DNA from: an uncultured Acidobacteriota bacterium
GTDB lineage: Bacteria > Acidobacteriota > Vicinamibacteria > Vicinamibacterales > CAVVIG01
Assembly: GCA_963780685.1 (NCBI GenBank)
Contig: CAWACZ010000012.1
Location: forward strand, 195,238-259,237
Length of the DNA stretch: 64,000 nt
Direction: 5' to 3'
Of the stretch, positions 3,871 through 16,192 are shown piece by piece; the stretch's first letter is position 1; the number at the start of each line of letters is the position of its first letter. Position numbers and translations under genes: made by a program. The notes beneath the pieces were generated by a model that saw only the letters and a program-made list of their open reading frames with translations, had not been told where the DNA came from and searched no databases.

Positions 3871-4007
3871 AATGACCATGTATTGTCCATTGGTGGCGAC
3901 ACTGGCGGCCGCCGCCTCGTGCAATTGCCGCCACATTCGGCCCCCTCGTGATGGCACAGGGCGTGCTCGCGGTCGACGCGCACGGTCTGCGAAGGAGGTA
4001 TCACAAG

Positions 4008-6299
4008 ATGAGGTCGATGAACAGTATCTGCTGGGCGGCCGCGTGGCTGGTCTACGCGTCGGCCAACGCCGCCGACGCACAAACCGCGACGATCGAGGGC
4101 CGCGTCGTCGATGCGCGCTCCAACCAGCCGCTGGCCCGGGTCGTGGTCCACGTCGAGCATCAATCGGTGTTTGCGGACACCGACGCAACGGGCGCGTTCA
4201 CGCTGTCGCTGCCACCAGGCCGGCACACGATCTCGGCGTTCTTAATCGGCTACGCCATCGTCCGTCACGTCGTTGACGTCGGCGTCGGTGCGACAGAGGA
4301 GTTGGTGATCGAGCTCTCGGAAGGCGCGGGCCGCTATGAAGAAGTCGTGACCGTCGAGGGCTCGGTCCGCGACGACACGGACGGCGCGCCTGGCGGTTCC
4401 GTCCTGCACGGACGCGATCTGCAGGCGTTGCGCGGGGTGATGCTGGACGATCCGCTGCGCGCGCTGCAGGCGCTCCCCTCCGCAACCTCGACCAACGACT
4501 TCTATAGCGAGTTCGCCGTGCGCGGCAGCAGCTTCCGTCATCTCGGCCTGGCGATCGACGGCATCCCGGCTCCGTACTTGATCCATACGATTCACGCCGT
4601 GCCTGACGGCGGTTCGATTGCGATGGTCAACAGCGAGGCACTCGGTGCAGCGTCGCTGCGGCCGGGCAGTTACCCGCAACGCCTGGGCCGCCGGCTCAGC
4701 GCGCAAATCGATCTGAGTACGCGCGACGGCGACCGCGAGGGCGTCCACGGCCGTGTGGGGCTGAGCGGAACCAGCGCGAATGCGATTGGCGAGGGCCCAT
4801 TCGCAAGCGGCCGCGGGGCGTGGGTCGCCTCCGTGCGGCGCAGCTATCTCGACTTCCTGCTCGATCGCATCGATCCCGAGGGGAGCGTCGGATTCGGATT
4901 CAGTGACGCGCTCGGCAAAGTCACCTTCGACGTGAACCCACGTCACCAGCTGCAGTTGCTGACGGTGATCGGCCGCTCGCTCTTCGACGAAGCGCCGGAG
5001 GATCTCGGCGTGAATGACGAGGTGCAGGCGAGAAGCCGCGCCTGGCTCACGGCCGCCACGTGGCGGTATACGCCGGCCGCGCGGCTTGCGGTATCGCAGC
5101 GTGTGTATGTGACGGGGATGGACTTCAGGAACGTCAACAAGAACGACGTGCTGCTCGATGGCGGCGAGGCGAACGACGTCGGCTGGCGCGCCGACGCGAC
5201 CTACGCGCTCCGCGATGGATGGATCGCCGAGTTCGGCGGCGACGTGCTGCGATCGACTGCGGCCCGCGCGCGGCAACGCACCTTCGACGGCGCGACCGAG
5301 CCGGTGACGCTCAGCAACTACTCGGCGACCGGCGGCGCGGCCTCCGCGTACGCACAACTATCGGCGCGCATGGGCCCGGTCATCATCACTCCGGGAGCTC
5401 GCGTGGATCGCTGGCAGGCCACCGACACGACCACGTCGTCGCCATGGATCACCGGCGAATGGGCGATGACAAGCACGATGCAACTTAGCGGTGGTGCGGG
5501 TATCTACCGACAGTTCCCCGATCTCACGATGCTGAACGGTCTCAACGGCGACCCGCATCTCCGTCCCGAGCGCGCGGCGCACGCGGACCTCGCCATCGTC
5601 CGGACGTTCGCTGATTCAGTGAGTCTGCAGGTAACGGGCTATCGACGCGACGAGCGCGACGTCTTGCGGATCGCGGACTCGGAGCCGCGGCGATTGACCG
5701 ACGGAACGATTGTGCTGGGGCGCGGCGATGCGCGATGGTCGAATCGCCTGAGCGGCCGCGCGGATGGTGTCGAGGTCCTTCTCCGCCGCGACGCACCGGA
5801 TGCCCTGTCAGGCTGGATCGCGTACGCATACTCTCGACATCGTTACGACGATGTGGTGACAGGCGAGCGGTTTTGGAATGACTACGATCAGCGTCACAGC
5901 CTGTCGACCTACGCGCTCTATCGCCTGTCGAACCGCTCGAGCCTTGGCGCGAAGTTTCGTTACGGCAGCAACTATCCGATCACAGGCTATGTTGGACAGC
6001 AAACATTCTCGCCGAATGCTCCCCCGCTGTTCGGCGGCGAGCGACCGCTGTTCTTTGGCCTCACCGATCTGCGCAACACGCTGCGGCTGCCCGTCTATGC
6101 CCGCCTTGACGTCCGCGCCGACCGCGCCGTGTCGTGGTCGGGACGCCGCGTCACGCTGTTCGTGGAAGTCGCCAACGTGCTGAACCGCCGCAACGAGCGG
6201 AACGTGCCGTATTCGGTCGGCCGCAATGGACAACTGAATGGCGTCACCGATTCGCTGTTGCCCATCGTGCCGTCTGCCGGGTTTGTGATTGAGTTCTAG
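4008..6299 (+). CDS. TonB-dependent receptor-like outer-membrane protein with N-terminal CarboxypepD_reg domain
   Basis: SD GAAGGAGG at 3991-3998. Signal peptide MRSMNSICWAAAWLVYASANAADA, then TIEGRVVDARSNQPLARVVVHV...TDATGAFTLSLPPGRHTISAFLIGY. Long beta-rich body ends in the terminal ...PSAGFVIEF. Confidence 0.85.
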   Translation: MRSMNSICWAAAWLVYASANAADAQTATIEGRVVDARSNQPLARVVVHVEHQSVFADTDATGAFTLSLPPGRHTISAFLIGYAIVRHVVDVGVGATEELVIELSEGAGRYEEVVTVEGSVRDDTDGAPGGSVLHGRDLQALRGVMLDDPLRALQALPSATSTNDFYSEFAVRGSSFRHLGLAIDGIPAPYLIHTIHAVPDGGSIAMVNSEALGAASLRPGSYPQRLGRRLSAQIDLSTRDGDREGVHGRVGLSGTSANAIGEGPFASGRGAWVASVRRSYLDFLLDRIDPEGSVGFGFSDALGKVTFDVNPRHQLQLLTVIGRSLFDEAPEDLGVNDEVQARSRAWLTAATWRYTPAARLAVSQRVYVTGMDFRNVNKNDVLLDGGEANDVGWRADATYALRDGWIAEFGGDVLRSTAARARQRTFDGATEPVTLSNYSATGGAASAYAQLSARMGPVIITPGARVDRWQATDTTTSSPWITGEWAMTSTMQLSGGAGIYRQFPDLTMLNGLNGDPHLRPERAAHADLAIVRTFADSVSLQVTGYRRDERDVLRIADSEPRRLTDGTIVLGRGDARWSNRLSGRADGVEVLLRRDAPDALSGWIAYAYSRHRYDDVVTGERFWNDYDQRHSLSTYALYRLSNRSSLGAKFRYGSNYPITGYVGQQTFSPNAPPLFGGERPLFFGLTDLRNTLRLPVYARLDVRADRAVSWSGRRVTLFVEVANVLNRRNERNVPYSVGRNGQLNGVTDSLLPIVPSAGFVIEF

Positions 6300-6338: not shown

Positions 6339-6674
6339 TTACGCTGTTGGTTCACGCAGCATGACCAGGAGCATGCGTGACGCTTCCGCGGCCCGAACAG
6401 CGTGAGGCACGTTCGCGGGCATCAGCACCAGGGATTGCGGGATGGTCCGCACTTCGCGACCGCCGATAGTCAGAACGAGCGCTCCGGACAGGGTGAGCAC
6501 GAGCGCATCAAAAGGTGCGGTGTGCTCTGATAGTTCTTCACCCGCGTCGAAGGCGAAGAGCGTGATATTGCCCGCTGCTGTCCGCGCCAGTACACGGCTT
6601 GCGATGCCTTGTGCGGTCGGCGTGACGAGATCTTCCAACGCCCACAGTTCACCGGGCGGAAGCGTGCTCGCCAT
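6339..6674 (-). CDS. Cupin-domain protein (last gene of the molybdoenzyme operon)
   Basis: 111 aa; GNITLFAFDAGEELSEHTAPFDALVLTLSGALVLTIGGREV...MPANVPHAVRA is a cupin_2-like two-motif pattern. It lies 7 bp after the preceding gene. Confidence 0.8.
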   Translation of the reverse strand: MASTLPPGELWALEDLVTPTAQGIASRVLARTAAGNITLFAFDAGEELSEHTAPFDALVLTLSGALVLTIGGREVRTIPQSLVLMPANVPHAVRAAEASRMLLVMLREPTA

Positions 6675-6681
6675 GACCTTC

Positions 6682-6933
6682 TTAAGCTCCAGCCCTTCTA
6701 GTGCGCTCGATGCGCCGCAGATAGATGAGCAGCCCGACGTTCAGGCCCAACCCACCCGCACTCACTGCAGCTGCCGGCCAGACCACAGAAGCATCTCCAC
6801 CGAGCCAGGCGTTCATGGTCGCGGTGAGCAGCCAGAGTTGAAGAATCACGACGATCAGGACGAAGACCAGCATCCCGTAGACGATGATCGTCCGCTGGTC
6901 GCGGCTGAACGGCCGCTGCGCCGAAGCGCTCAT
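6682..6933 (-). CDS. Small two-TM membrane protein of unknown function
   Basis: MSASAQRPFSRDQRTIIVYGMLVFVLIVVILQLWLLTATMNAWLGGDASVVWPAAAVSAGGLGLNVGLLIYLRRIE. ATGA overlap with the Rieske gene stop (6930-6933). Confidence 0.6.
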   Translation of the reverse strand: MSASAQRPFSRDQRTIIVYGMLVFVLIVVILQLWLLTATMNAWLGGDASVVWPAAAVSAGGLGLNVGLLIYLRRIERTRRAGA

Positions 6934-7577
6934 GTTGTCCTCTCCTCGATCGCGACGGCGTAGATCTCCCGCCCTCTGATGGCGAGCACGATCCGTGTCA
7001 ACGGCCGGCGCGGCGGCCCGGCGGTGGGCGCGCCCGTCCTGAGGTCGAACCGCCCTTCGTGGCAGGGACAGTAGAAGCTGTTCTCGGCCGGCCGGGGAAT
7101 CACGGCACAAGACAAGTGCGTGCACTTCTGGCCGAAGGCGACGAACTCGTTCGTGGTCAGCCGCACCAACAAACAGGGTTCGTGTTCGTCAGGGTAAGTG
7201 AAGACAACCACCCCGCCGACGGCCATATCGTCGATCGAAGCAATCCGCTGCATTGCCGGCTGGCCAGAGCGCTTCCGGTACCAGTTCTGGACGCCAATCC
7301 ACACCTGTCCCAGCGTGAACGCCGCGCTGGTCAGCACGAGGAACTTCATGAAGTCCCGGCGCTCGACATAGAGATCCTGCGGCCAGTCGATCGGGAAGTC
7401 CTGCCGCCAGGCGGGCTGGGCGTCGGCCGGTGCGAAGTTCGGTGCGATGGTGATCTGCTCACGCTCGAGCGGGGGCGCGTAGAGGCTCGCGGGAGCCGTT
7501 CCGGTGAGACCTTCACGTCCCGGCGAGTTGATTGCGGGATCGACCGGGCGACGTGGATCGGGACCGACGTCGGTCAT
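6930..7577 (-). CDS. Membrane-anchored Rieske [2Fe-2S] protein
   Basis: 215 aa; TM/Tat-like ERRDFMKFLVLTSAAFTLGQVWIGV; Rieske ligand boxes CTHLSC and CPCHEGRF. Confidence 0.85.
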   Translation of the reverse strand: MTDVGPDPRRPVDPAINSPGREGLTGTAPASLYAPPLEREQITIAPNFAPADAQPAWRQDFPIDWPQDLYVERRDFMKFLVLTSAAFTLGQVWIGVQNWYRKRSGQPAMQRIASIDDMAVGGVVVFTYPDEHEPCLLVRLTTNEFVAFGQKCTHLSCAVIPRPAENSFYCPCHEGRFDLRTGAPTAGPPRRPLTRIVLAIRGREIYAVAIEERTT

Positions 7578-7579
7578 CG

Positions 7580-8257
7580 CTACACCTCGACCTCGGTGAA
7601 CGGGTCGTACTCAGCGGGCGCCGCGGCGGGTGGGGTCACGACCTTCAGCGCCACTGCCCGGCTCCGGGGCTGCTCTTCCATCGCCGCGGTGACATCGACG
7701 TGCGGCGCCACAGTCGCCAGCTTTCGGGGCACCATCACGTACACCTGCGTGGTGATCGTCTGATGGCCGAACTGGAAGGTGTTGACGGGCGTCGAGAGAG
7801 GCCGCAGCTGTTCGATCTGCTCTCGCGTGCCGAAGAAGAGCGCCTGGCTCGGGCACACGGTCGCGCACATCGGCTTCTTGCCGACGCTCGACCGGTCGTA
7901 ACACATGTCGCACTTCATCATGATCTTGCGGTCTTCGTAGAGCTCGGGCACGCCGAACGGGCAGGCCACCACGCAGTTCCCGCAGGCGATGCAGCGTGGC
8001 TTCCGTGCCGATTGCACCACCCCGTCGCCGGTGCGCTTGATGGCGTCCGCCGGACACACCTCGGCGCAGGTGGGCTGGTCGCAGTGCATGCAGACGACGG
8101 GCACGGTCTGCACGCTCTCCGACCGGTTCACATATTCGAGGTGAATCATCGATTCGCCGCGGTGCGTGTCGCACTCGGAGCATGCCTGCACGCAGGCCTG
8201 GCAGCCGATGCAGCGGTTTGGATCGATGAAGAAGTGCAGGTAGTCCGGTTTGCCCAT
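7580..8257 (-). CDS. 4Fe-4S dicluster (DmsB/PsrB/NrfC-like) electron-transfer subunit
   Basis: 225 aa with four Cys groups: [44 protein letters not shown]...CATVCP. Confidence 0.9.
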
Positions 8258-8275
8258 GGTGATGGTCGTGCCCGT

Positions 8276-10550
8276 CTATTGCTGCGGCTCGAGCACCGCC
8301 GCGTAGTCCGGCGGTCCATCCGCCCTGCGCACGAGGCACCCGCATACCTTGTACTGCGGGATCTTGCTGATCGGGTCCTGGGCGGCTACCGTCAGTTGGT
8401 TCGCGCTCTTCCGGCCGGCCCAGTGATAGGGGATGAAGATCGTGTCCGGACGGATCGTGGTCACTACCTGCGCTTTGAGCGTGATGGTCCCGCGCCGGGT
8501 CTCGGCCGTCGTCCAATCGCCGTCCGCGATCCCGAGCTTCGCTGCCAGCCGCGGATGCATCTCGATTCGCGGCTCGGCGTACTGTTGCACCAACGGTCCG
8601 ATCCGGCGCGTCTGCGTGCCGGAGAGGAACTGGCTGACGACCCGGCCAGTGGTCAGGTAGATCGGATACTCCTCGCTGGCATCGTCAACCGGCGGGCGAT
8701 ACTCCGCGACGTTGAAGCGCGCGCGGCCGTCGGGAAAGTAGAACGGTCCGCTGCCTTTGGCGACTGGGTTGTAGCTGCCGCGCTCGAAGAGGCGCGGCGT
8801 GCCGGGATGGTCATCGATGGCGGCACCGGTGCGCGGGTCCTCGCTGTAGCACGGCCAGAAGACGCCGAGCTGCTCTGTGATCTTCTCGTAGGTCACGCCC
8901 GAGTAGTCCGCAACACCGCCCTTGCTGGCGACGCGAAGTTCCTCGAAGATCTCGCGCGGCTGGCGGAAGGTGAAGCCGCGCGGCCTGCCCAGGGCCTGCG
9001 CGATGTCCTGGATGATGCGCCAGTCCTCGCGCGCGTCGCCCGGGCATTCCACCGCCTTGTTGATCTTGATGATGCGCCCCTCGACCTGCGTGACCGTGCC
9101 CTCATCTTCCTCGTGCAGACTGCCGGGCAGCACGATGTCGGCGTGCCACGCCGTGTCGTTGAGGAAGAAGTCGATGGCGGTGTAGAACTCGAGCTTCTCG
9201 AGACAGCGCGTGATGAACGCGTTGTCCGGAAGCGATACCTTCGGGTTGAAGCAAATCGACAGCAGCCCCTTGATCTCACCGCGATCGATCTTGCGGAACA
9301 GCTCGTAGGCGTCAACACCTGGCCCTGGAAGCTCCTGCTCGTCAATCCCCCAGACGCCAGCGATGTATCGCCGGTGTTCAGGGTTGCTGATGTCCCGCCA
9401 ACCTGGGAGCTGATCGCACTTCTGCCCGTGCTCGCGACCGCCCTGTCCGTTGGCCTGGCCGACGATGGTGCCGTAGCCGCTCTTCGGCTTGCCGATCCGT
9501 CCCGACGCGAGCACGAGGTTGATCGTGCCGAGCGCGTTCTGGACCCCGTTCGAGTGGTGCTCGATGCCGCGGGCGTGGAAGAGGAAGCTCGTCTTCGCCG
9601 TCCCCCACCATTCGGCAGCCTGCATCAGCGCCCGCTTCGGCACGCCGGTCACTTCAGCGGTCCGAGGCAGCGTCCACTCCCGGCAGTACGCCGCCAGCCT
9701 GCTCGAAGCCGACCGTGTGGGCGTCGATGAACGCGTGATCGAGCCAGTCGCGCTCGATCATGATCTGCAGCACGCCGGCAAAGAGCGCCGCGTCACGCCC
9801 TGGCTTCACAGGCAGGTACAAGTCGCAAGTCCGGGCAGCGGGCGTGATGCGCGGATCCTGGACGATGATCTTCGCGCCCTGCTCGCGCGCCTGCCAGATG
9901 TAGTTCGTGGTGATCGGCGAGCACTCGGCCACGTTCGAGCCGGCGACCCAAATCACCTCGGTCCCGACCATGTCGGACCACGGATTCGTGGTGCGGTCGA
10001 TGCCGAACGCCTTCTTGTTCGCGGCGCCGGCGCTGACCATGCACAGCCGTCCGTTGTAGTCGATGAACGGCGTCTTCAGGCAGACGCGCGCGAACTTGCC
10101 GAGCAGATAGGTCTTCTCTGTCGTCAGGCTCGCGCCGCCGAGGAGGCCGATGGCGCCGGCGCCGTGCGTGTGCTGAATGCGGCCGATCTCGGCGGCGACA
10201 CGGCTGATGGCGTCCGCGTACGGCAGCGGACTGAATCCCGACGCCGAGGACGTATCCCGCCGCAACGCCGTCGTCAACCGATCGGGATGCGAGCCCTGGA
10301 GGTAGCGCTTCACGCCCTTCGGGCAGAGCATGCCGCGATTGAACGGGAAGTCTTCCCATGGCTCGAAGCCAATCACCTGATTGTCGCGGACCTTGAGCTG
10401 AATGCCGCATTGCTGCCCGCAGAAACAGCAATGCGTCTTCACGAGCCGATCCGGCTCGACGCTGGTCGACAGCCGAACGCCCGTCATCGCGGACAGGTGC
10501 GGCCCGAACCGTTCGATGATGCGAAGGGGATCGACCGGAACTTCGGCCAC
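8276..10550 (-). CDS. Molybdopterin oxidoreductase, Nas/NarB-type nitrate-reductase-like catalytic subunit; apparent 1-nt insertion at a CCC/GGG run near 9679-9681
   Basis: N-terminal FeS box [10 protein letters not shown]. Cys Mo-ligand context [20 protein letters not shown]-terminal half ...[59 protein letters not shown]. No twin-arginine signal. ORFs 9654..10550 and 8276..9652 are in different phases. Confidence 0.9.
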
Positions 10551-10555
10551 GCCGG

Positions 10556-12885
10556 CTACCCTGCCTCTCGTTCGTCACTTGGCCCGCCGAAGCTATCAGG
10601 CGAAGGCGGCCGAGCGTTCAAGTAGTGCTGCCACAACGCTCCCTGCGCCAGACCGAAGAGTGCGCGGCGGCACTTGGGGCAAACGTCTTGGTAGTGCCCG
10701 CCGCCGGACAACTGGTACTGAAAGCCGAGTTCCTGCTCGACGACGGTGAGATCGCGAACCATCGGCAGCGAGGCATACGGTTGCCCGCAGCGGCGGCAAG
10801 CGGCCTGCTGGCCGCGAGCGCCTGCGTCCTTGTAGAAGCCGACGCCGAGCTGGGCCGGCCGTTGAAAGACGTGGAACAGCTTGCCGAACGGCAGCCAGAG
10901 CAGCGTCACGATCACCGTGGCGGCATGGAGAATCGCGAGGAACTCGTACGCGTAGCCCCGCATCCACGTGTAGCTGGCCGTGAGCATCAGCCCCGTCATG
11001 CTGATCGCGAAGAGCAGCAGCAGCGGCAGGATGTCCTGCCCGAACTGCTGCACGGCGACAGCGCCGTGGTCGATCATGCGGCGCCGGAAGGCGAGCATCA
11101 CGCCAGCGATGACCAGGAACGACGACCAGACCAGCCCATGGAAGATGACGAAGGCGAACGCGGACTCCACGGGAAAGTCCTGCATCGGGATGCCGAACAC
11201 GAAGGTGCGGTACCTGTGCAGGTCACCGGGAACCGTTTCGAAGTGAATCCAGCCCCAGACCAGCGGGAACGTGATCGCAGCAGCAAGCACGCAGCCCCAC
11301 ATGATCAGCCAGTGCGCGAGCCCACGGAGCCGGCCGCGCCGGAAGATGTACGCATTGGCCGCGAACTCCAGCAGCGCGCGGCGACCCGAGGCTGACCGTG
11401 TTGCCGGCCAGCGCGCGCCGTGAGAAGGAAGGCCTGCCATCCGCGACGCCAGTACATGCGCGTCGGCGGACGCTGCAGCCACATCGCGTACCGATAGCTG
11501 ATCCCGAACGCCGCAAAGAGCGTCGCGAACGTGTAGCCGACGAGCGCCGCGTCGAAGTGCTGCAGGTTTCGCGACCCGACGACGATCGCCGCGGCCAACG
11601 TGGCCGTGACGAGCGCTGCCCACGCGCCGGCTCTGACACGCTCGAGCGCCTGACGCGCGGCCACCGGGAGAGACCGCGTCCATTCGACGTCGCCTGGACG
11701 GAAGACACGCTGATTCGCCGCGCGCAGCAACAGTGCGGTCGCGGACAGGAGGAGGAACCCGGGCCAGATGGCGCCGAGTCGATCGCGGAAGACGCCGAGC
11801 AGGAGCGGCGGGAAGAACCCGCCGAGACCGCCGAGGGCGCCGACGAGGCCGGTCACCGTGCCGGTGTCTTTCGGGAAGCGTTCCGGGACCAGCTTGAAGA
11901 CGGCGCCGTTTCCCAGTCCCATCAGCATCGCGCACCCGAGCGCGCCGACCGTGAACGGCACCATCGACGGCCAGGTCAGAAGCAGCGAGAACAGGGCGAC
12001 GCCGCCGAAGACCCACGACAGGACCTGGGCGCCGCCGATCCGGTCCGCCAGCCACCCGCCGACGGGCCGCATGAGCGTGGCGAGCACGACGAATCCAGCC
12101 GCTCGGAATCCGGCGTCCGCAGGGGCCAGGCCGAACTGCGCACGCAGCAGCGTCGGCAGGTAGATCGAGAACGCGACGAATCCCCCGAATGTCAGGAAGT
12201 AGAATGCGCCGAGCAGCCAGGCGGTAGGCGCGCGCCGCAGGACCGCGGTCATCGCGGCGACCGTGGCGGGACGCCCGGCCTGCGGGGGATTCCGCGCGAA
12301 CACGAAGTAGGCGACGGCCCAACCCAGGAGAAGCGCGCTGGTGCCCCGGAACACCACTTCCCAGCCCAGGCGAGCGGCCACCACCGGGCCGGCGAAGACG
12401 GCAAGCGATTGCCCCATCGTCCCCAGACCGTAGACGCCGAGGGCGGTGCCCTGTCGAGCCGCCGGGGTCCAGCGGGACACGAAGGCCGCCCCTACCGCGA
12501 AGGACGACCCAGCCATGCCGATGAGGAAAGCCGCTACGAGCAGCGAGCCGAAGCTGCTCGTCAGCGGAACGAGGAACGCCGCCAGTGAGGAGAAAGCCAG
12601 GAGCGCGGTGAAGACCAGGCGGCCGCCGAATCGATCCGTCAGCATGCCCATCGGCAGCCGCGCCAACGAGCCGAGCAACACCGGCACGGCAACCAACAGC
12701 GCCGTCTGCGACGCCGTCAGCCCATAGAGACTGCTGAAGACAGACGCCAGTCCGCCAATGAGGCCCCACGCAGCGAACGACAGCGTAAAAGAGATCGTCG
12801 CGAGTACCAAGGGACGCGTGGGCGACGTCCCTGCACCGGTCACGTGGGCCACGGATGGCCTGCTCTCGAGAGACGTATCGCGCAT
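10556..12885 (-). CDS. Fusion protein: NarK-type MFS nitrate/nitrite transporter plus NarI-like di-heme cytochrome b domain plus C-terminal Cys4 ribbon; apparent frameshift near 11400
   Basis: ORF 11305..12885 is a 12-TM MFS ([16 protein letters not shown]...[34 protein letters not shown]). The C-terminal 280 aa of ORF 10556..12946 read [24 protein letters not shown]...FHGLVWSS...[20 protein letters not shown] and CRRCGQPY...CPKCRR. Confidence 0.8.
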
Positions 12886-13195
12886 GTCGTCTGTCTAGTC
12901 TGCCGCCACCGTTCGCGAACCTGTCCGGGATGCCGAGTGTGTCCAAGCCGAACAGTTCAGTTCACATGCGAGCGTCCGATTCCTGAAGCGGCCGTCGCTG
13001 TTCTCGACTCGGCTCCAGAAGCCAGCAGCATACCAGCGGTCGTGGCGCCGCTGCACGACACTCGAAACGGGAGGCTGCTATCGATACGACGGACGAGCAC
13101 AGCGATGATCGCGATCCCATCGGTGACTCGCCTTGGAGCAAGCCGAGTACTTGTGGTGCAGCACATTGCAGCTGGCAACGGCTTCGGAGATCACA

Positions 13196-13716
13196 TCACG
13201 CGGACAGGTATCGCTCGCGTAGGATGGCCGATGTGGTGAGCAACGTGCCCGATGCACATGTAAGCGAGCGCCCGAACCGTGAACGGGTTGCCGCTGGCGA
13301 CACCGCGCCGCGCCCACCCATCCGCCGGCAGCGATCGGAAAGAAGGCGATGGTCGCGCCTCGAACCGCCTCGAACTCCACAACGATGTCCGCCCATGGCC
13401 GATTGTCGGCGTGGGCAGCCGATACGGCAACCTCCTGGTCGAAGCTCGGTAGCGGACTCTCGAAACCACGAGCAAACCAGAAGGCGCGAGCCACGAACAG
13501 CCGCTCGCAGTCCGCCAGGTGATTCATCACGTCGCGGATGCTCCACTTCCCTGGCGCATAGCGGTGAAGCGACTGTGTCTCCGTGATGCCGCGCGCGAGT
13601 TGGAGCACCTCAGGGAGCTGCACCACCAGCTGCGCGCAGATATCCCCATCCGGAACTTGATCGATATACGTGAAGTAATACGGCGCGGCCTCGGTGCGAT
13701 CAGGACGCTGCGGCAT
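13196..13716 (-). CDS. DinB-family protein, two apparent frameshifts (near 13330 and 13225)
   Basis: ATG 13716 MPQRPDRTEAAPYYFTYIDQVPDGD...WSIRDVMNHLADCERLFVARAFWFARG. It continues in other phases as RSLPADGWARRGVASGNPFTVRALAYMCIGHVAHH, then ILRERYLSA*. Confidence 0.7.
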
Positions 13717-13968
13717 GGAAATTCCCTTAGAAGCACTCGAAATCTTCGCCGCCAACAGGTCGGCACAATCCAGCCAGCCGGTGTTCGAATCGATCACGCT
13801 GTTTGACAACAAGGCGGTTGCCGCAACATGGTCGCCCGCTCCCGAAAACAAGTATCGCGTGGAACTCACAGTGAATGCGGACAAACTGAAGGCAGACGGT
13901 TCAGGGCGCGCGAACATGGCTCCGACCGAAGTGGCGGCGGGCCGGTCCCGTATACTCGATGCCAACGC

Positions 13969-16192
13969 ATGTCGATTCCCGCCCAGATTGCGCACTACCG
14001 CGTGGTCTCGAAGCTTGGCGAAGGCGGGATGGGCATCGTCTATGAGGCCGACGATCCAAGGTTGGGGCGGCGGGTCGCCATCAAGCTGCTTCGGGCCGAT
14101 GACGCCATCGCCCGAGCCCGCCTCGTGCGGGAGGCGCGCGCCGCGGCCGCGATCTCGCATCCGCTGATTTGTCAGGTTTTCGATCTGGGCGAATGGGACG
14201 GCCGCCCCTACCTCGTGATGGAGCTCGTGCAGGGAGATCCGCTCAGCGCGAGGCTGGGACGGCCGCTTCCACCCGACCAGGCGCTGCGATGGGCGCTGGC
14301 CATCGGTGAAGGGCTCGCCGTCCTTCACCATCACGCCATCGTCCACCGCGATCTGAAGCCGTCGAATGTCTTCGTCACCCGGTCTGGCCTGAAGCTCCTC
14401 GACTTCGGGCTCGCGCGGCCGATCGACACCCACGACAACGAAACGATGGCGGGCGTGACGCAGGCCGGCGTCATCGTCGGCACACCGCAGTATGCCGCGC
14501 CGGAACAGCTATCGGGCGATTCCGTCGACGCACGGGCGGACCTGTTCTCGCTCGGCGTGATGCTGTTCGAGATGGTCACCGGGCGACCGCCCTTCGTGGG
14601 CACGACGCTCGCGGCCCTCATTCATGCCGTGCTCTACGACACGCCTCCCGTGCTGACGGGCTCGCCGGCCATTTCCGCGCTCGACCGCGTGATTCATCGC
14701 GCGCTGGCGAAGAGGGCCGACAATCGCTACCCGACGATCGACCGAATGGCGTCGGAGCTTCAGGCGGCGCTGGCATCCCTCGGTTCGGACCCGCCGATCG
14801 AAACACGAGCCGTCACGCGCCTGGCAGTGCTCCCGTTTCGCCTGCTCAAGGCGGATCCGGATATCGACTACCTGCGGTCGAGTCTGGCGGACGCGATTAC
14901 GACGTCGCTGTCCGGCCTGGAGTCGCTGGTGCTGCGATCGACCATCAAGTCGGCCGCGTACGCGGACGCCTCACCCGATCTGAACCGCATCGCGTCCGAG
15001 CTGGCGGTGGACGCCGTCCTGACCGGCTCGATTCTGTCGTCGAACGATCGCCTGCGTGTCAGCGCCCAGCTGGTGACGGCGCCGGCCGGCGACGTCTTGT
15101 GGTCGGTACGGCACGGTTGTGGACGCCAGTGCGGTGTTCGAGCTCCACGAGACCCTCGCACGGCGTACGGTCGAGGCGCTACCCCTCACGTCACGCGACC
15201 AGGCGCGACGACCGCAGGCTGGCCCGGCGAATCACAAGGCCTTCGATTTGTACCTCCGAGGGATGCAGCTTCGAATGGAGCCGAGCAGCTGGCGGCAGGC
15301 GCGGGCGCTGTTCGAACAATCGGTCGCGCTGGACCCGGCGTTCGCGCCGGCCTGGGCCGAGCGAGGGCGTCTCGATCGCGTCCTGGGCAAGTTCGAGAAT
15401 CGCGCACGACTCGCGGACGCGGAAGCGGCGTTTCAGCGCGCGCTCGAGCTCGATCGCGACAATGGTGCGGCGCACTACTACTACGCGCAACTCGAGATCG
15501 ACGTGGGACGCGCAGACGCGGCGCTCGAACGCCTCCTCGATCGGGCGCGGCAGCGACGCGCCGAGCCGGAAGTGTACGCAGCGCTCGTTCATGCGTGTCG
15601 CTATTGCGGGCTGCTCGACGAGTCGCTCGCCGCACACGACCATGCCCGCCGGCTCGACCCGACGGTCACGACGAGCGTGCTTCATACCTACTACATGCGA
15701 GGCGATTACGGACGGGCGCTCGAGCAGGGCCACCAGAGCACCGATCCCTTGGAAGCTCGCGTCCTGGGTGCGATGGGTCGCACAGGAGAGGCCATCGCCG
15801 CCGCGCGACGCGAGGAGGAACGCTTCAGCGCCGTTCCGACGCTGAAGAGCTTGTGCACCGCGTTTCGCGCCACGTTGGAGGGCCGTCGTGACGAGGCGCA
15901 AACGGCGCTCGCCGGGCTCGCAGGATTCAACGAATTCAACGACGGGGAGGGACTCTTCTATGTCGCCCAGCTCTACGCCATGCTGGGTCTGGTCGACCAG
16001 GCCGTCGTCACGCTCGAGGGATCCGTCGACCTGGGTTTCGTCGCGGTAACCGCCATCGAGAACGACCCGTACCTGAAGCCGCTGCGCCAGCTCACGAGGT
16101 ACGTGGAAGTGGTGGAGCGCGCGAGGACCCGACAAAGCGCCGCCGCCGGGACCTTCGCCCGCGCCGGCGGCTTTCTGGTGTTGCAGAACTAG
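13969..16192 (+). CDS. Hanks-type Ser/Thr protein kinase with TolB-N-like and TPR C-terminal region; apparent frameshift near 15105
   Basis: ATG 13969 MSIPAQIAHYRVVSKLGEGGMGIVYEA...HRDLKPSNVF...DFGLAR...GTPQYAAPE, then RLAVLPFRLLKADPDIDYLRSSLADAI. The TPR part lies in ORF 15119..16192. Confidence 0.85.

What the first reader, a model, noticed from the sequence alone, without database searches (positions are those of the whole stretch)
6339..12885. Nas-type molybdoenzyme embedded in a Nar-like membrane electron chain, with the NarI-like cytochrome b fused to a NarK transporter
One tightly packed minus-strand operon encodes six proteins:
- A 12-TM NarK-like MFS fused to a NarI-like 5-TM domain with conserved His pairs and a C-terminal CxxC...CxxC ribbon.
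- A signal-less molybdopterin oxidoreductase with nitrate-reductase-type features (CxxCxxxC FeS box, RLCMVSA Cys ligand, [16 protein letters not shown]).
- A four-cluster DmsB-like ferredoxin.
- A membrane-anchored Rieske protein.
- An 83-aa two-TM protein.
- A cupin.

Assimilatory Nas/NarB enzymes normally take electrons from NADH or ferredoxin partners. Respiratory NarGHI uses NarI. I do not recognise a Nas-like catalytic subunit wired through Rieske, ferredoxin and a transporter-fused cytochrome b as a described nitrate reductase type. Fusing the substrate porter to the quinol-oxidising subunit would physically couple import and reduction.
Basis: partly seen in the sequence, partly recalled or inferred. 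Interest (0 to 1): 0.6.

Follow-up and report, generated by a model that had tools for sequence, protein, structure and literature searches.

The report
Membrane nitrate reductase with transporter-fused anchor
This operon encodes an apparently unstudied but very widespread membrane-bound nitrate reductase, built from an "assimilatory-type" catalytic subunit, a four-cluster ferredoxin, a haem-b membrane anchor (here fused to a nitrate transporter), an export-tagged Rieske protein and a tiny membrane protein, which soil surveys currently count as ordinary assimilatory nitrate reductase.

Summary
Six tightly packed minus-strand genes lie at 6339-12885.

Two of them are broken by three single extra bases, at about 9697, 11388 and 11424-11427. 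Relatives, short-read soil contigs and RNA contigs all lack these bases. The assembly shows indel errors elsewhere, so the breaks are almost certainly assembly errors.

Relatives carry one intact 765-aa NarK-type MFS fused to a haem-b anchor.

The core cassette (anchor, Mo subunit, 4-cluster ferredoxin, Rieske, DUF6755) keeps the same order in 65 of 83 loci. Another 17 are cut by contig ends. The loci come from at least 9 phyla, and at least 574 species genomes hold the anchor.

The Mo subunit forms its own clade. It is sister to a nirBD-linked NasA, lies outside the formate dehydrogenases, and has Nas/Nap-type active-site residues.

NarK or SLAC1-type anion channels, and NO-stress genes, travel with the cassette. 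Nitrite reductase genes do not. The MFS-anchor fusion arose at least twice.

The Rieske protein has a universal Tat motif, disulfide-type cluster boxes and an AioB-like head.

I found no description of this system. Best reading: a quinol-linked nitrate reductase with a cytoplasmic active site and an outward-facing Rieske centre. Topology, electron path and physiological role are inferred, not shown.

The parts
11641..12885 (-). NarK-type (NNP family) 12-TM MFS domain; N-terminal half of the fusion gene
   Evidence: MFS_1 163 bits. TIGR00886 NarK subfamily 215 bits, below its 311.7 cutoff. 27% identity to E. coli NarK (E 4e-18), with both substrate arginines aligned: R89 to R76 and R305 to the R of LMRPVGG.
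10556..11640 (-). Haem-b membrane anchor (CYB module). Six predicted TM helices, four conserved His, and a cytoplasmic CxxC...CxxC tail. It is fused in frame to the MFS in relatives. In the window two extra bases break it, near 11424-11427 and 11384-11388.
   Evidence: Relatives read ...[32 protein letters not shown]... across the two breaks. Short-read DNA and RNA contigs lack one base at 11388 and at 11424/11427. H110, H168, H239, H257 and four Cys are invariant in 35 sequences. AF2 pLDDT is 85.7; the best PDB fold is NarI 1y5i_C, E 0.1, prob 1.0, TM 0.48. Pfam Nitrate_red_gam scores 18.8 bits against a gathering score of 22.9.
8276..10550 (-). Mo-bisPGD catalytic subunit of NasC type, with no Tat signal. 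In the window one extra base near 9697 splits it into 9654-10550 and 8276-9652.
   Evidence: NCBIfam NasC NF047855 scores 237.5 + 506 bits for the two halves, against a cutoff of 1100. It is intact at 757 aa in relatives. One base is left out at 9697 in soil contigs. Tree and active-site columns. No RRxFL motif in 67 family N-termini.
7580..8257 (-). Four-cluster [4Fe-4S] ferredoxin of DmsB/FdnH/NarH type, with no signal peptide and no TM helix
   Evidence: Fer4_11 72 bits; DmsB TIGR02951 95.6 bits, below cutoff. Four Cys groups are visible in the sequence. It lies next to the Mo gene in every locus that reaches that far, 65 of 83.
6930..7577 (-). Membrane-anchored Rieske [2Fe-2S] protein. It has a conserved N-terminal segment, a twin-arginine motif (ERRDFMKF), one TM helix and an AioB-like head with disulfide-type boxes CTHLSC...CPCHEG.
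   Evidence: Rieske PF00355 36 bits; best NCBIfam hit is the arsenite oxidase small subunit, 43 bits. The RR[DE][FY]xKF motif was seen in every sequence printed, and R73/R74 are invariant in the 31-sequence alignment. Both cluster boxes were found in all 67 loci. AF2 head pLDDT is above 90; the best PDB match is AioB 8cgs_B, E 3e-8, TM 0.74, rmsd 1.6.
6682..6933 (-). DUF6755, an 83-aa protein with two TM helices. Its start overlaps the Rieske stop (ATGA).
   Evidence: PF20540 121 bits. It follows the Rieske gene in all 65 complete loci.
6339..6674 (-). Cupin_2 protein of 111 aa, an accessory gene
   Evidence: Cupin_2 32.8 bits. At 80-89% identity it sits directly after DUF6755 in L008, L009 and L012, and at 58% in L062. 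Weaker cupins lie next to the cassette in 7 other loci. It is absent from L001-L003.

Best explanation
The operon encodes a five-subunit, membrane-bound nitrate reductase of a build that I could not find described.

Proposed mechanism:
- Nitrate enters through the NarK-type domain. In other lineages a separate NarK or a SLAC1/TehA-type channel encoded beside the cassette would do this.
- Nitrate is reduced to nitrite in the cytoplasm at the Cys-ligated Mo-bisPGD site of a NasC-type subunit.
- Electrons come from membrane quinol. They are oxidised at the outer face of a NarI-like di-haem anchor.
- They cross the membrane through two b haems: H168/H239 on the outer side and H110/H257 on the inner side.
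- They then reach the Mo subunit through the anchor's cytoplasmic face (loops plus the Cys4 tail) and the four [4Fe-4S] clusters of the ferredoxin. The enzyme would thus work like NarGHI.
- The Tat-tagged, disulfide-type Rieske head and DUF6755 sit at the outer face. They form part of the quinol-oxidising site or a side branch to periplasmic carriers.

In Vicinamibacterales the transporter is fused to the anchor, which ties import physically to reduction.

Shown: gene content, conservation, clade, active-site residues, motifs, folds, and transcription in soils.

Inferred: substrate, sidedness, haem binding, electron path, and physiological role. The role is probably dissimilatory or redox-balancing rather than classical assimilation.

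The three frame breaks in the window are assembly errors.
For: - Cassette order is conserved in 65 of 83 loci, with 17 more cut by contig ends, across Acidobacteriota, Myxococcota, Planctomycetota, Chloroflexota, Gemmatimonadota, Verrucomicrobiota, Rhodothermota, Abditibacteriota and Deinococcota.
- The Mo subunit clade has 100/99 support and is sister to D. grandis NasA, which lies beside nirBD and narK1 (100/98). It is outside the FDH clade.
- RLCMVSA and I[TV]GQ match Nas/Nap and not FDH.
- NarK-type MFS is fused in 16 loci and sits directly downstream in at least 12. A SLAC1 channel sits directly downstream in 23.
- The fusion arose at least twice. One distant fused clade (L105) carries the same cassette.
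- NarK R89 and R305 are conserved.
- The Mo subunit (0 of 67) and the ferredoxin (0 of 48) have no Tat motif.
- The anchor has four invariant His at NarI-like depths. H239 and H257 align with NarI H187 and H205. NarI is the best fold match.
- Both the cytoplasmic loops with the Cys4 tail and a periplasmic sheet are conserved.
- The Rieske protein has the Tat motif in every sequence inspected and disulfide-type cluster boxes in all 67 loci.
- Recurrent neighbours are RIC/ScdA, Rrf2, and NnrS+DUF1858. NirB-like genes are near only 2 of 83 loci.
- Relative L002 has a separate classical nas-like cluster.
- Rhizosphere RNA contigs cover 6990-12700 and stop at the operon start.
- Frame breaks. Other split genes in the window.
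Against: - No biochemical or genetic data exist for any member.
- NarI membership of the anchor is below Pfam's threshold. hhalign gives only 6.8% probability, and the Foldseek E-value is 0.1.
- Haem binding is inferred from His positions only.
- The Rieske head most resembles AioB, which binds its Mo subunit directly and carries it through Tat. The Mo and ferredoxin subunits could therefore be periplasmic.
- The strongly basic stretch after the Rieske TM helix would, by the positive-inside rule, favour a cytoplasmic head.
- The role of a high-potential-type Rieske centre in a quinol-to-nitrate chain is unexplained.
- No NarJ-like chaperone is in the cassette.
- The RNA evidence comes from contigs of relatives and may include DNA.
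Confidence: 0.6

Rival explanations
1. AioAB-like periplasmic enzyme. The signal-less Mo subunit and the ferredoxin fold in the cytoplasm and are exported by hitchhiking on the Rieske protein's Tat signal. Nitrate is reduced outside the cell. The linked NarK, SLAC1 or HPP transporters take up the nitrite product (or do something else). The anchor passes quinol electrons to the Rieske and ferredoxin chain on the outer face.
For: The Rieske head is structurally closest to AioB (E 3e-8, TM 0.74-0.78). The distribution of signals is exactly that of arsenite oxidase: Tat motif on the Rieske protein, none on the Mo subunit. The disulfide-type boxes argue for an exported head.
Against: - Nitrate/nitrite porters are linked recurrently, and NarK has fused to the anchor independently. 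This is typical of cytoplasm-facing Nar and not of Nap or pNar operons.
- The anchor has conserved cytoplasmic loops and an invariant cytoplasmic Cys4 tail that would have no partner.
- A di-haem transmembrane wire is unnecessary if donor site and acceptor are on the same side.
- The nearest relative of the Mo subunit is a cytoplasmic NasA.
- The n-region before the RR motif is long and highly conserved.
Confidence: 0.15
2. The complex is an assimilatory nitrate reductase after all. It would be a Nas variant that draws electrons from the quinone pool instead of NADH or ferredoxin, supplying nitrite to a nitrite reductase encoded elsewhere.
For: The Mo subunit is NasC-like and sister to an assimilatory NasA. 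Pipelines call it an assimilatory nitrate reductase catalytic subunit. Vicinamibacterales are aerobic soil heterotrophs (my own knowledge). An NO-detoxifying partner is also known for assimilatory NasC in Bradyrhizobium (PMC4724949 abstract).
Against: - NirB-like genes lie within 8 kb in only 2 of 83 loci. Classical nas genes sit beside nirBD or cobA.
- Relative L002 carries a separate classical nas-like cluster as well.
- The architecture (membrane anchor, 4-cluster FeS subunit, transmembrane haems) is that of energy-conserving respiratory enzymes.
- Neighbours are NO-stress genes, not nitrogen-regulation genes.
Confidence: 0.2
3. The enzyme acts on another substrate (chlorate, selenate, tellurite, iodate, formate and the like) and the nitrate context is misleading.
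For: No assay exists. NasC and NarK model scores are below the curated cutoffs. SLAC1/TehA relatives are linked to tellurite resistance (family name only).
Against: - The active site is of Nas/Nap type and lacks the FDH His and Arg.
- The NarK arginines are conserved.
- Two NarK/NasA-annotated genes flank the cassette in Deinococcus.
- RIC, Rrf2 and NnrS neighbours point to nitrite and NO.
Confidence: 0.07
4. In this genome the operon is a decaying pseudogene cluster, and the three frameshifts are real mutations.
For: Three frame breaks in 6.5 kb. I could not lay reads of the source sample itself.
Against: - There are no in-frame stops or other lesions. The proteins remain about 90% identical to intact relatives.
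- All three breaks are single extra bases.
- Unrelated neighbouring genes (kinase, DinB-like, hicA, the DUF1592 region) show the same kind of break.
- ENA long-read relatives show similar local frame errors (P0002, P0003, L001).
Confidence: 0.08

Closest known systems
Respiratory nitrate reductase NarGHI with NarK (E. coli type)
   Same: Overall logic. There is a nitrate/nitrite porter, a catalytic subunit without an export signal, a four-cluster FeS subunit, and a membrane haem-b anchor with NarI-like His spacing in its last helix. NarI is the anchor's best fold match.
   Different: - The catalytic subunit is a 757-aa Cys-ligated NasC-type enzyme, not the 1,200-aa Asp-ligated NarG (narG model about 21-29 bits).
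- The ferredoxin is half the size of NarH.
- The anchor has six TM helices, a Cys4 tail, and its outer haem ligand on a different helix.
- No NarJ is present.
- Rieske and DUF6755 subunits are added.
- The transporter is fused to the anchor.
Assimilatory nitrate reductases NasC/NasA/NarB (e.g. Deinococcus grandis nasA beside nirBD-narK1; Paracoccus NasC with the Rieske ferredoxin NasG)
   Same: Closest sequence family of the catalytic subunit (NF047855 is the best model). The clade is sister to NasA in the tree. It shares the Cys-Met active site and the N-terminal [4Fe-4S] box. A Rieske-type partner exists in Paracoccus Nas (PMC3475470 text).
   Different: - The score is below the NasC equivalog cutoff.
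- No NADH or ferredoxin-reductase partner and no nirBD linkage are present.
- The partners are membrane proteins.
- The Rieske protein is Tat-tagged, TM-anchored and of disulfide type, unlike the soluble NasG/NirD.
Haloarchaeal pNar (Haloferax mediterranei narB-narC-narG-narH)
   Same: A nitrate reductase operon that includes a Rieske protein and a cytochrome b, for which a Q-cycle-like coupling was proposed (PMC2483277).
   Different: There the catalytic subunit is a Tat-exported NarG facing outward, and the cytochrome b is annotated as a 486-aa cytochrome b (NarC). Here the Mo subunit is of Nas type without a signal, and the cytochrome is NarI-like.
Arsenite oxidase AioAB (and the related iodate reductase IdrAB)
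   Same: A Mo-bisPGD subunit without a signal is paired with a Tat-tagged Rieske subunit. The Rieske head here is structurally closest to AioB.
   Different: AioA has no Cys ligand, and its model scores far below cutoff here. AioAB has no four-cluster ferredoxin, no haem-b anchor and no transporter, and it is an oxidase of a periplasmic substrate.

Membership tests
NasC-type assimilatory nitrate reductase (NCBIfam NF047855 equivalog) | Whole-protein score at or above the curated cutoff (1100 bits) | tested here: not met
   The two halves score 237.5 + 506 bits. NasC is still the best-scoring model. NCBI annotates relatives only as 'molybdopterin oxidoreductase family protein'.
NasC-type assimilatory nitrate reductase (NCBIfam NF047855 equivalog) | Cys Mo ligand followed by Met, no FDH-type His/Arg, and an N-terminal CxxCxxxC...C [4Fe-4S] box | tested here: met
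   RLCMVSA, I[TV]GQ and HCCFCGQQC are conserved in all 12 family rows.
NasC-type assimilatory nitrate reductase (NCBIfam NF047855 equivalog) | Genomic linkage to an assimilatory nitrite reductase (nirBD/nirA) and a soluble NAD(P)H or ferredoxin electron donor | tested here: not met
   A NirB-like match lies near only 2 of 83 loci. The partners are a membrane anchor, a 4-cluster ferredoxin and a Rieske protein.
Respiratory nitrate reductase NarGHI | NarG-type catalytic subunit (TIGR01580) | tested here: not met
   20.9 and 28.6 bits against a cutoff of 1084.
Respiratory nitrate reductase NarGHI | NarI gamma subunit (Pfam PF02665; di-haem, His pairs on two helices) | tested here: inconclusive
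   PF02665 scores 18.8 bits against a gathering score of 22.9. hhalign probability is 6.8%, but it aligns H239/H257 with NarI H187/H205. The best Foldseek hit is NarI, E 0.1, prob 1.0, TM 0.48. Four invariant His are present, but the outer pair uses a different helix.
Respiratory nitrate reductase NarGHI | NarH beta subunit (TIGR01660) and NarJ chaperone in the operon | tested here: not met
   The narH model scores 31.5 bits against a cutoff of 524. No NarJ-like gene appears among the cassette genes or the recurrent neighbours.
NarK/NNP nitrate-nitrite porter family (TIGR00886) | Subfamily model score and the two substrate-binding arginines of E. coli NarK (R89, R305) | tested here: inconclusive
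   215 bits is below the 311.7 cutoff. However, this is the only strong family hit, and both arginines align. JGI names relatives NarK/NNP.
Rieske/cytochrome b complexes (bc1, b6f) | Tat-anchored Rieske protein with disulfide-type boxes CTHLGC...CPCHGS | tested here: met
   The RR[DE][FY]xKF motif followed by a TM helix was seen in every sequence inspected, and R73/R74 are invariant in 31 aligned sequences. CTHL.C...CPCH.G is present in all 67 loci.
Rieske/cytochrome b complexes (bc1, b6f) | Cytochrome b of the bc type | tested here: not met
   The anchor has no bc-type cytochrome b Pfam hit, and no such fold appears among the PDB matches.
Arsenite oxidase AioAB | AioB-like Rieske small subunit | tested here: met
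   By fold: 8cgs_B and 1g8k_B, E 3e-8 to 6e-8, TM 0.74-0.78, rmsd about 1.5 A. By sequence, TIGR02694 scores only 43 bits against a cutoff of 95.65.
Arsenite oxidase AioAB | AioA-type large subunit (no Cys ligand, TIGR02693) | tested here: not met
   34 and 59 bits against a cutoff of 359. The Cys ligand is present where AioA has Ala.
DUF6755 (PF20540) | Pfam model above the gathering score | tested here: met
   121 bits against a gathering score of 27.

The most novel reading that the evidence does not exclude
The Tat-anchored Rieske head, the conserved outer sheet of a NarI-fold (not bc-type) di-haem cytochrome, and DUF6755 together form a new, independently evolved Qo-like quinol-oxidising site.

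One electron of each quinol would cross the membrane through the haems to reduce nitrate in the cytoplasm. The other would leave through the Rieske centre to periplasmic carriers, for example towards nitrite, NO or N2O reductases or an oxidase.

This would be a further lineage of 'Rieske/cytochrome b' enzymes and a fourth architectural class of bacterial nitrate reductase beside Nar, Nap and Nas.
Probability: 0.25. Interest if true: 0.9.

Novelty: new variant of a known kind. Interest (0 to 1): 0.7.

Why it matters
Nitrate reductases are sorted into Nar (respiratory, membrane), Nap (periplasmic) and Nas (assimilatory, soluble). Gene surveys use these labels to infer what soils do with nitrate.

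This cassette joins a Nas-type catalytic subunit to respiratory-style membrane wiring. It occurs in at least 574 species genomes of dominant soil, sludge and freshwater phyla. Its Mo subunit forms very large metagenome clusters, with up to 1,470 member sequences per 90% cluster. IMG labels it 'assimilatory nitrate reductase'.

If the enzyme is quinol-linked and energy-conserving, part of the 'assimilatory' nitrate-reduction potential reported for Acidobacteriota, Planctomycetota, Gemmatimonadota, Chloroflexota and Myxococcota is really dissimilatory. That would affect nitrite, NO and N2O budgets.

Mechanistically, a Rieske centre placed across the membrane from the catalytic site, and the repeated fusion of the substrate porter to the electron-input subunit, are both unusual and can be tested directly.

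Tried and rejected
I could not survey the window's own genome or co-occurrence with narG, napA or nir genes.
- Eight literature searches found no description of the cassette. 'DUF6755' occurs in no paper.
- The M. smegmatis narB knock-out paper (PMC7816997) is only a lead. I could not check whether that narB belongs to this cassette.
- A PDB sequence search with the anchor gave nothing at E <= 10.
- Rfam found nothing in the window, so the upstream 310 nt hold no known riboswitch or leader.
- The consensus promoter and terminator scan found nothing above chance.
- The 'ferredoxin-Rieske fusion' called in relative L001 is an indel artefact, not a real fusion.
- I rejected formate dehydrogenase. 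It gives the best PDB sequence hits, but the tree and the missing His and Arg exclude it.
- I rejected the idea that the fusion is a mis-joined pair of genes.
- No multimer prediction was available.

Full report
**Observation**

The minus strand of 6339-12885 carries six tightly packed ORFs.
- an MFS transporter (MFS_1 163 bits; NarK subfamily TIGR00886 215 bits);
- a membrane domain with a weak NarI-family signal (PF02665, 18.8 bits);
- a molybdopterin oxidoreductase whose best curated model is NasC (NF047855, 237.5 + 506 bits);
- a DmsB-like four-cluster ferredoxin;
- a Rieske protein;
- DUF6755 (121 bits);
- a cupin.

Junctions are 5, 18, 2 and 7 nt, with an ATGA overlap between the Rieske and DUF6755 genes.

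**Frame breaks**

Two genes are broken.
- The fusion gene changes frame twice within 45 nt. Relatives read [32 protein letters not shown] straight through. The window needs one base removed near 11424-11427 and one near 11384-11388.
- The Mo gene needs one base removed near 9697.

Short-read soil metagenome contigs of relatives (at least 90% identical) show 'one letter left out' at 9697, 11388 and 11424/11427. The only other indel reported in this stretch, at 10594, lies in the anchor's variable C-terminal tail and appears in a single contig of one run. Rhizosphere RNA contigs show the same at 9697 and 11427.

Other genes in the window are split in the same way:
- the Ser/Thr kinase (13828-16192);
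- a DinB-like gene (13191 to about 13760);
- hicA and the 20-25 kb hot spot noted by earlier readers.

The sister long-read assemblies also show local frame errors (P0002, P0003, L001). I therefore read the three breaks as assembly errors (about 0.9) and not as decay.

**The fusion is real**

A search with the joined protein returned hundreds of single ORFs of about 765 aa that are 88-95% identical. Many come from short-read JGI assemblies. In L002-L005 the five genes are intact: 765, 757, 226-228, 215 and 82-83 aa. In L001 four are intact, and its ferredoxin-Rieske 'fusion' is an indel artefact.

**The cassette**

The anchor module (about 340 aa) also exists as a stand-alone protein of about 360 aa in many lineages.

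I examined 83 non-redundant loci:
- 65 carry anchor, Mo, ferredoxin, Rieske and DUF6755 in that order;
- 17 are cut by contig ends;
- one is rearranged.

Carriers include Vicinamibacteria, Blastocatellia, Thermoanaerobaculia, Myxococcota, Planctomycetota, Chloroflexota (including the isolate Herpetosiphon sp. NSE202), Gemmatimonadota, Verrucomicrobiota, Rhodothermota and Abditibacteriota. There is also a plasmid of Deinococcus sp. D7000. There the genes are annotated 'MFS transporter' (really the anchor), 'molybdopterin oxidoreductase family protein', '4Fe-4S binding protein', 'Rieske 2Fe-2S domain-containing protein' and 'hypothetical protein', flanked by two NarK/NasA genes.

**Neighbours**

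- NarK-type MFS is fused to the anchor in 16 loci (the Vicinamibacterales clade).
- It is encoded directly after DUF6755 in at least 12 loci.
- A SLAC1/TehA anion channel (PF03595, 181 bits) occupies that position in 23 loci.
- Recurrent upstream genes are ScdA/RIC di-iron proteins (15 loci), Rrf2 regulators (10), NnrS+DUF1858 (7), PAS histidine kinases (11) and small cupins. In Herpetosiphon the upstream gene is a DUF1858/DUF2249 protein.
- NirB-like genes are near only 2 of 83 loci.
- Relative L002 has a separate classical nas-like cluster 7-10 kb away.
- The window's cupin is conserved right after DUF6755 only in L008, L009 and L012. It is an accessory gene.

**Catalytic subunit**

I built a maximum-likelihood tree (LG+C20, 739 columns) with annotated NasA, NapA, FdhF, YdeP and AioA references.
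- The cassette subunits form one clade (100/99).
- That clade is sister to Deinococcus grandis NasA, which lies between nirBD and narK1 (100/98).
- The FDH clade (100/100) and the proteobacterial Nas + Nap clade (98/95) are separate.

Active-site columns agree. All members have RLCMVSA, with Cys-Met as in Nas and Nap. FDHs have Cys/Sec-His or Gln. All members have Thr or Val where FDHs have the catalytic Arg (I[TV]GQ against [VFML]RG[QH]).

None of 67 Mo N-termini and none of 48 ferredoxin N-termini has a twin-arginine motif.

**Anchor**

In 35 cassette-linked sequences, H110, H168, H239, H257 and the four Cys of the C-terminal CxxC...CxxC are invariant. In more distant homologues H168 is Asn.

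AF2 (pLDDT 85.7) predicts:
- six TM helices;
- cytoplasmic helices between TM2 and TM3;
- a three-strand periplasmic sheet between TM3 and TM4;
- a cytoplasmic Cys4 hairpin followed by a long helix.

The MFS C-terminus is cytoplasmic, and the loops follow the positive-inside pattern. H110 and H257 therefore lie near the cytoplasm, and H168 and H239 near the outer face. That is a di-haem wire like NarI, though the outer ligand sits on a different helix.

The NarI relationship is weak but specific:
- PF02665 is below its gathering score;
- hhalign gives 6.8% probability but pairs H239/H257 with NarI H187/H205;
- NarI chains (1y5i_C, 3ir5_C) are the only specific hits in Foldseek, at E 0.1-0.25, prob 0.98-1.0, TM 0.47-0.48.

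**Rieske subunit**

- All 67 sequences have CTHL.C...CPCH.G, including the two extra Cys that form the disulfide of bc-type and periplasmic Rieske proteins.
- Every sequence inspected has RR[DE][FY]xKF followed by one hydrophobic helix, and R73/R74 are invariant in the 31-sequence alignment.
- The motif is preceded by a highly conserved QPxWRxDFPIDWPxDxYV segment.
- It is followed by a basic stretch.
- The head (pLDDT above 90) is closest to the arsenite oxidase small subunit AioB: E 3e-8, TM 0.74-0.78, rmsd about 1.5 A.

This creates a compartment puzzle. The Tat motif and the disulfide argue for an exported head. The AioB likeness and the signal-less Mo subunit recall Tat hitchhiking. The basic C-flank would favour a cytoplasmic head.

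I weigh the following towards 'Rieske out, Mo and ferredoxin in' (about 0.55-0.6):
- the transporter linkage and repeated fusion;
- the conserved cytoplasmic surfaces and Cys4 tail of the anchor;
- the transmembrane di-haem design;
- the NasA sister relationship.

I give 'all outside' about 0.15 and 'all inside' about 0.15.

**Fusion history**

On a tree of 93 anchor modules the Vicinamibacterales fusions form one clade (support 99). L016 and L018, scored 'free' by my script, are also in frame with the MFS. The fused proteins P0181 and P0193 form a distant clade (97), and P0134 sits elsewhere. Starred branches force at least two origins.

P0181 lies in a locus with the same cassette (L105).

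The MFS domain aligns with E. coli NarK (27%, E 4e-18), with R89 and R305 conserved. Repeated fusion of a nitrate porter to this subunit is strong evidence of functional coupling.

**Expression and annotation**

Rhizosphere metatranscriptome contigs of relatives (at least 92% identical) cover 6990-12700. They fall to near zero over DUF6755 and the cupin, and to zero beyond 12916. This is weak evidence, because these are contigs and could include DNA.

IMG names the Mo subunit 'assimilatory nitrate reductase catalytic subunit'. NCBI names it 'molybdopterin oxidoreductase family protein'. Clusters hold up to 1,470 members.

**Comparison and novelty**

The system works most like NarGHI plus NarK, but it fails membership for NarG and NarH. 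Membership for NarI is inconclusive.

The catalytic subunit is nearest to NasC. It falls below the equivalog cutoff and lacks Nas partners and nirBD linkage.

A Rieske protein and a cytochrome b accompany the outward-facing NarG of haloarchaea (PMC2483277). A soluble Rieske ferredoxin serves Paracoccus Nas. Neither matches this build.

I found no paper or structure describing this cassette. Earlier notes of this scan describe the same cassette in other genomes and reach similar readings. I treated them as leads and re-derived the census, tree, motifs and folds here.

I file the system as a new variant of a known kind. The transporter-anchor fusion is the special feature of this window.

Noticed in passing
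window 12897-12927 (-), just upstream of the ATG at 12885: A promoter-like element, CGGACA-N19-CAGACT, ends about 11 nt before the start codon. Relatives L001, L003, L008, L011 and L012 have TTGACA at the same place and share a conserved spacer (CGCGAACGGTGGCG-like). The operon mRNA is probably nearly leaderless. The 310-nt 'structured leader' noted earlier is more likely plain intergenic DNA. The whole window has no Rfam match.
   Followed up: partly
window 13191-13760 (-): A DinB_2-like gene upstream of the operon is split by a frame break near 13470. Its C-terminal part (13191-13472) matches DinB_2, and its N-terminal part lies in another frame of ORF 13078-14433.
   Followed up: partly
window 13828-16192 (+): A Ser/Thr protein kinase with a TPR tail is split near 15100 into a kinase ORF and a TPR ORF. 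The homologue in relative L001 is one gene of 923-959 aa. This is another sign of indel errors in the assembly.
   Followed up: partly
L001 14602-15939: The gene caller's 445-aa 'ferredoxin-Rieske fusion' in this long-read relative is an artefact. The same DNA read two bases off gives GRGVAM where the window has EVEV-stop followed by ATG. All other loci keep two genes.
   Followed up: yes
L002 1-4800: A close relative on a 2.7-Mb contig has a second, classical nas-like cluster 7-10 kb upstream of the cassette. It comprises a NIR_SIR/Rieske nitrite reductase, a (frame-broken) Mo enzyme and a TP_methylase. The two systems therefore coexist.
   Followed up: no
L086 (Deinococcus sp. D7000 plasmid p_2, CP058536.1 275646-282083): A cultured Deinococcus carries the whole cassette on a plasmid between two NarK/NasA genes. 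The stand-alone anchor is mis-annotated there as 'MFS transporter'. This is a convenient experimental entry point.
   Followed up: partly
L059 7075-7851 (Herpetosiphon sp. NSE202): Directly upstream of the anchor lies a 258-aa DUF1858 + DUF2249 protein with a TusA-like end. DUF1858 also flanks NnrS in other loci. These look like NO or nitrite-stress accessories of the cassette.
   Followed up: no
window 3948-6299 (+): A 783-aa CarboxypepD_reg-domain protein, a TonB-dependent-receptor-like outer-membrane protein, ends 40 nt from the cupin gene and converges on it. It is unrelated to the operon.
   Followed up: no
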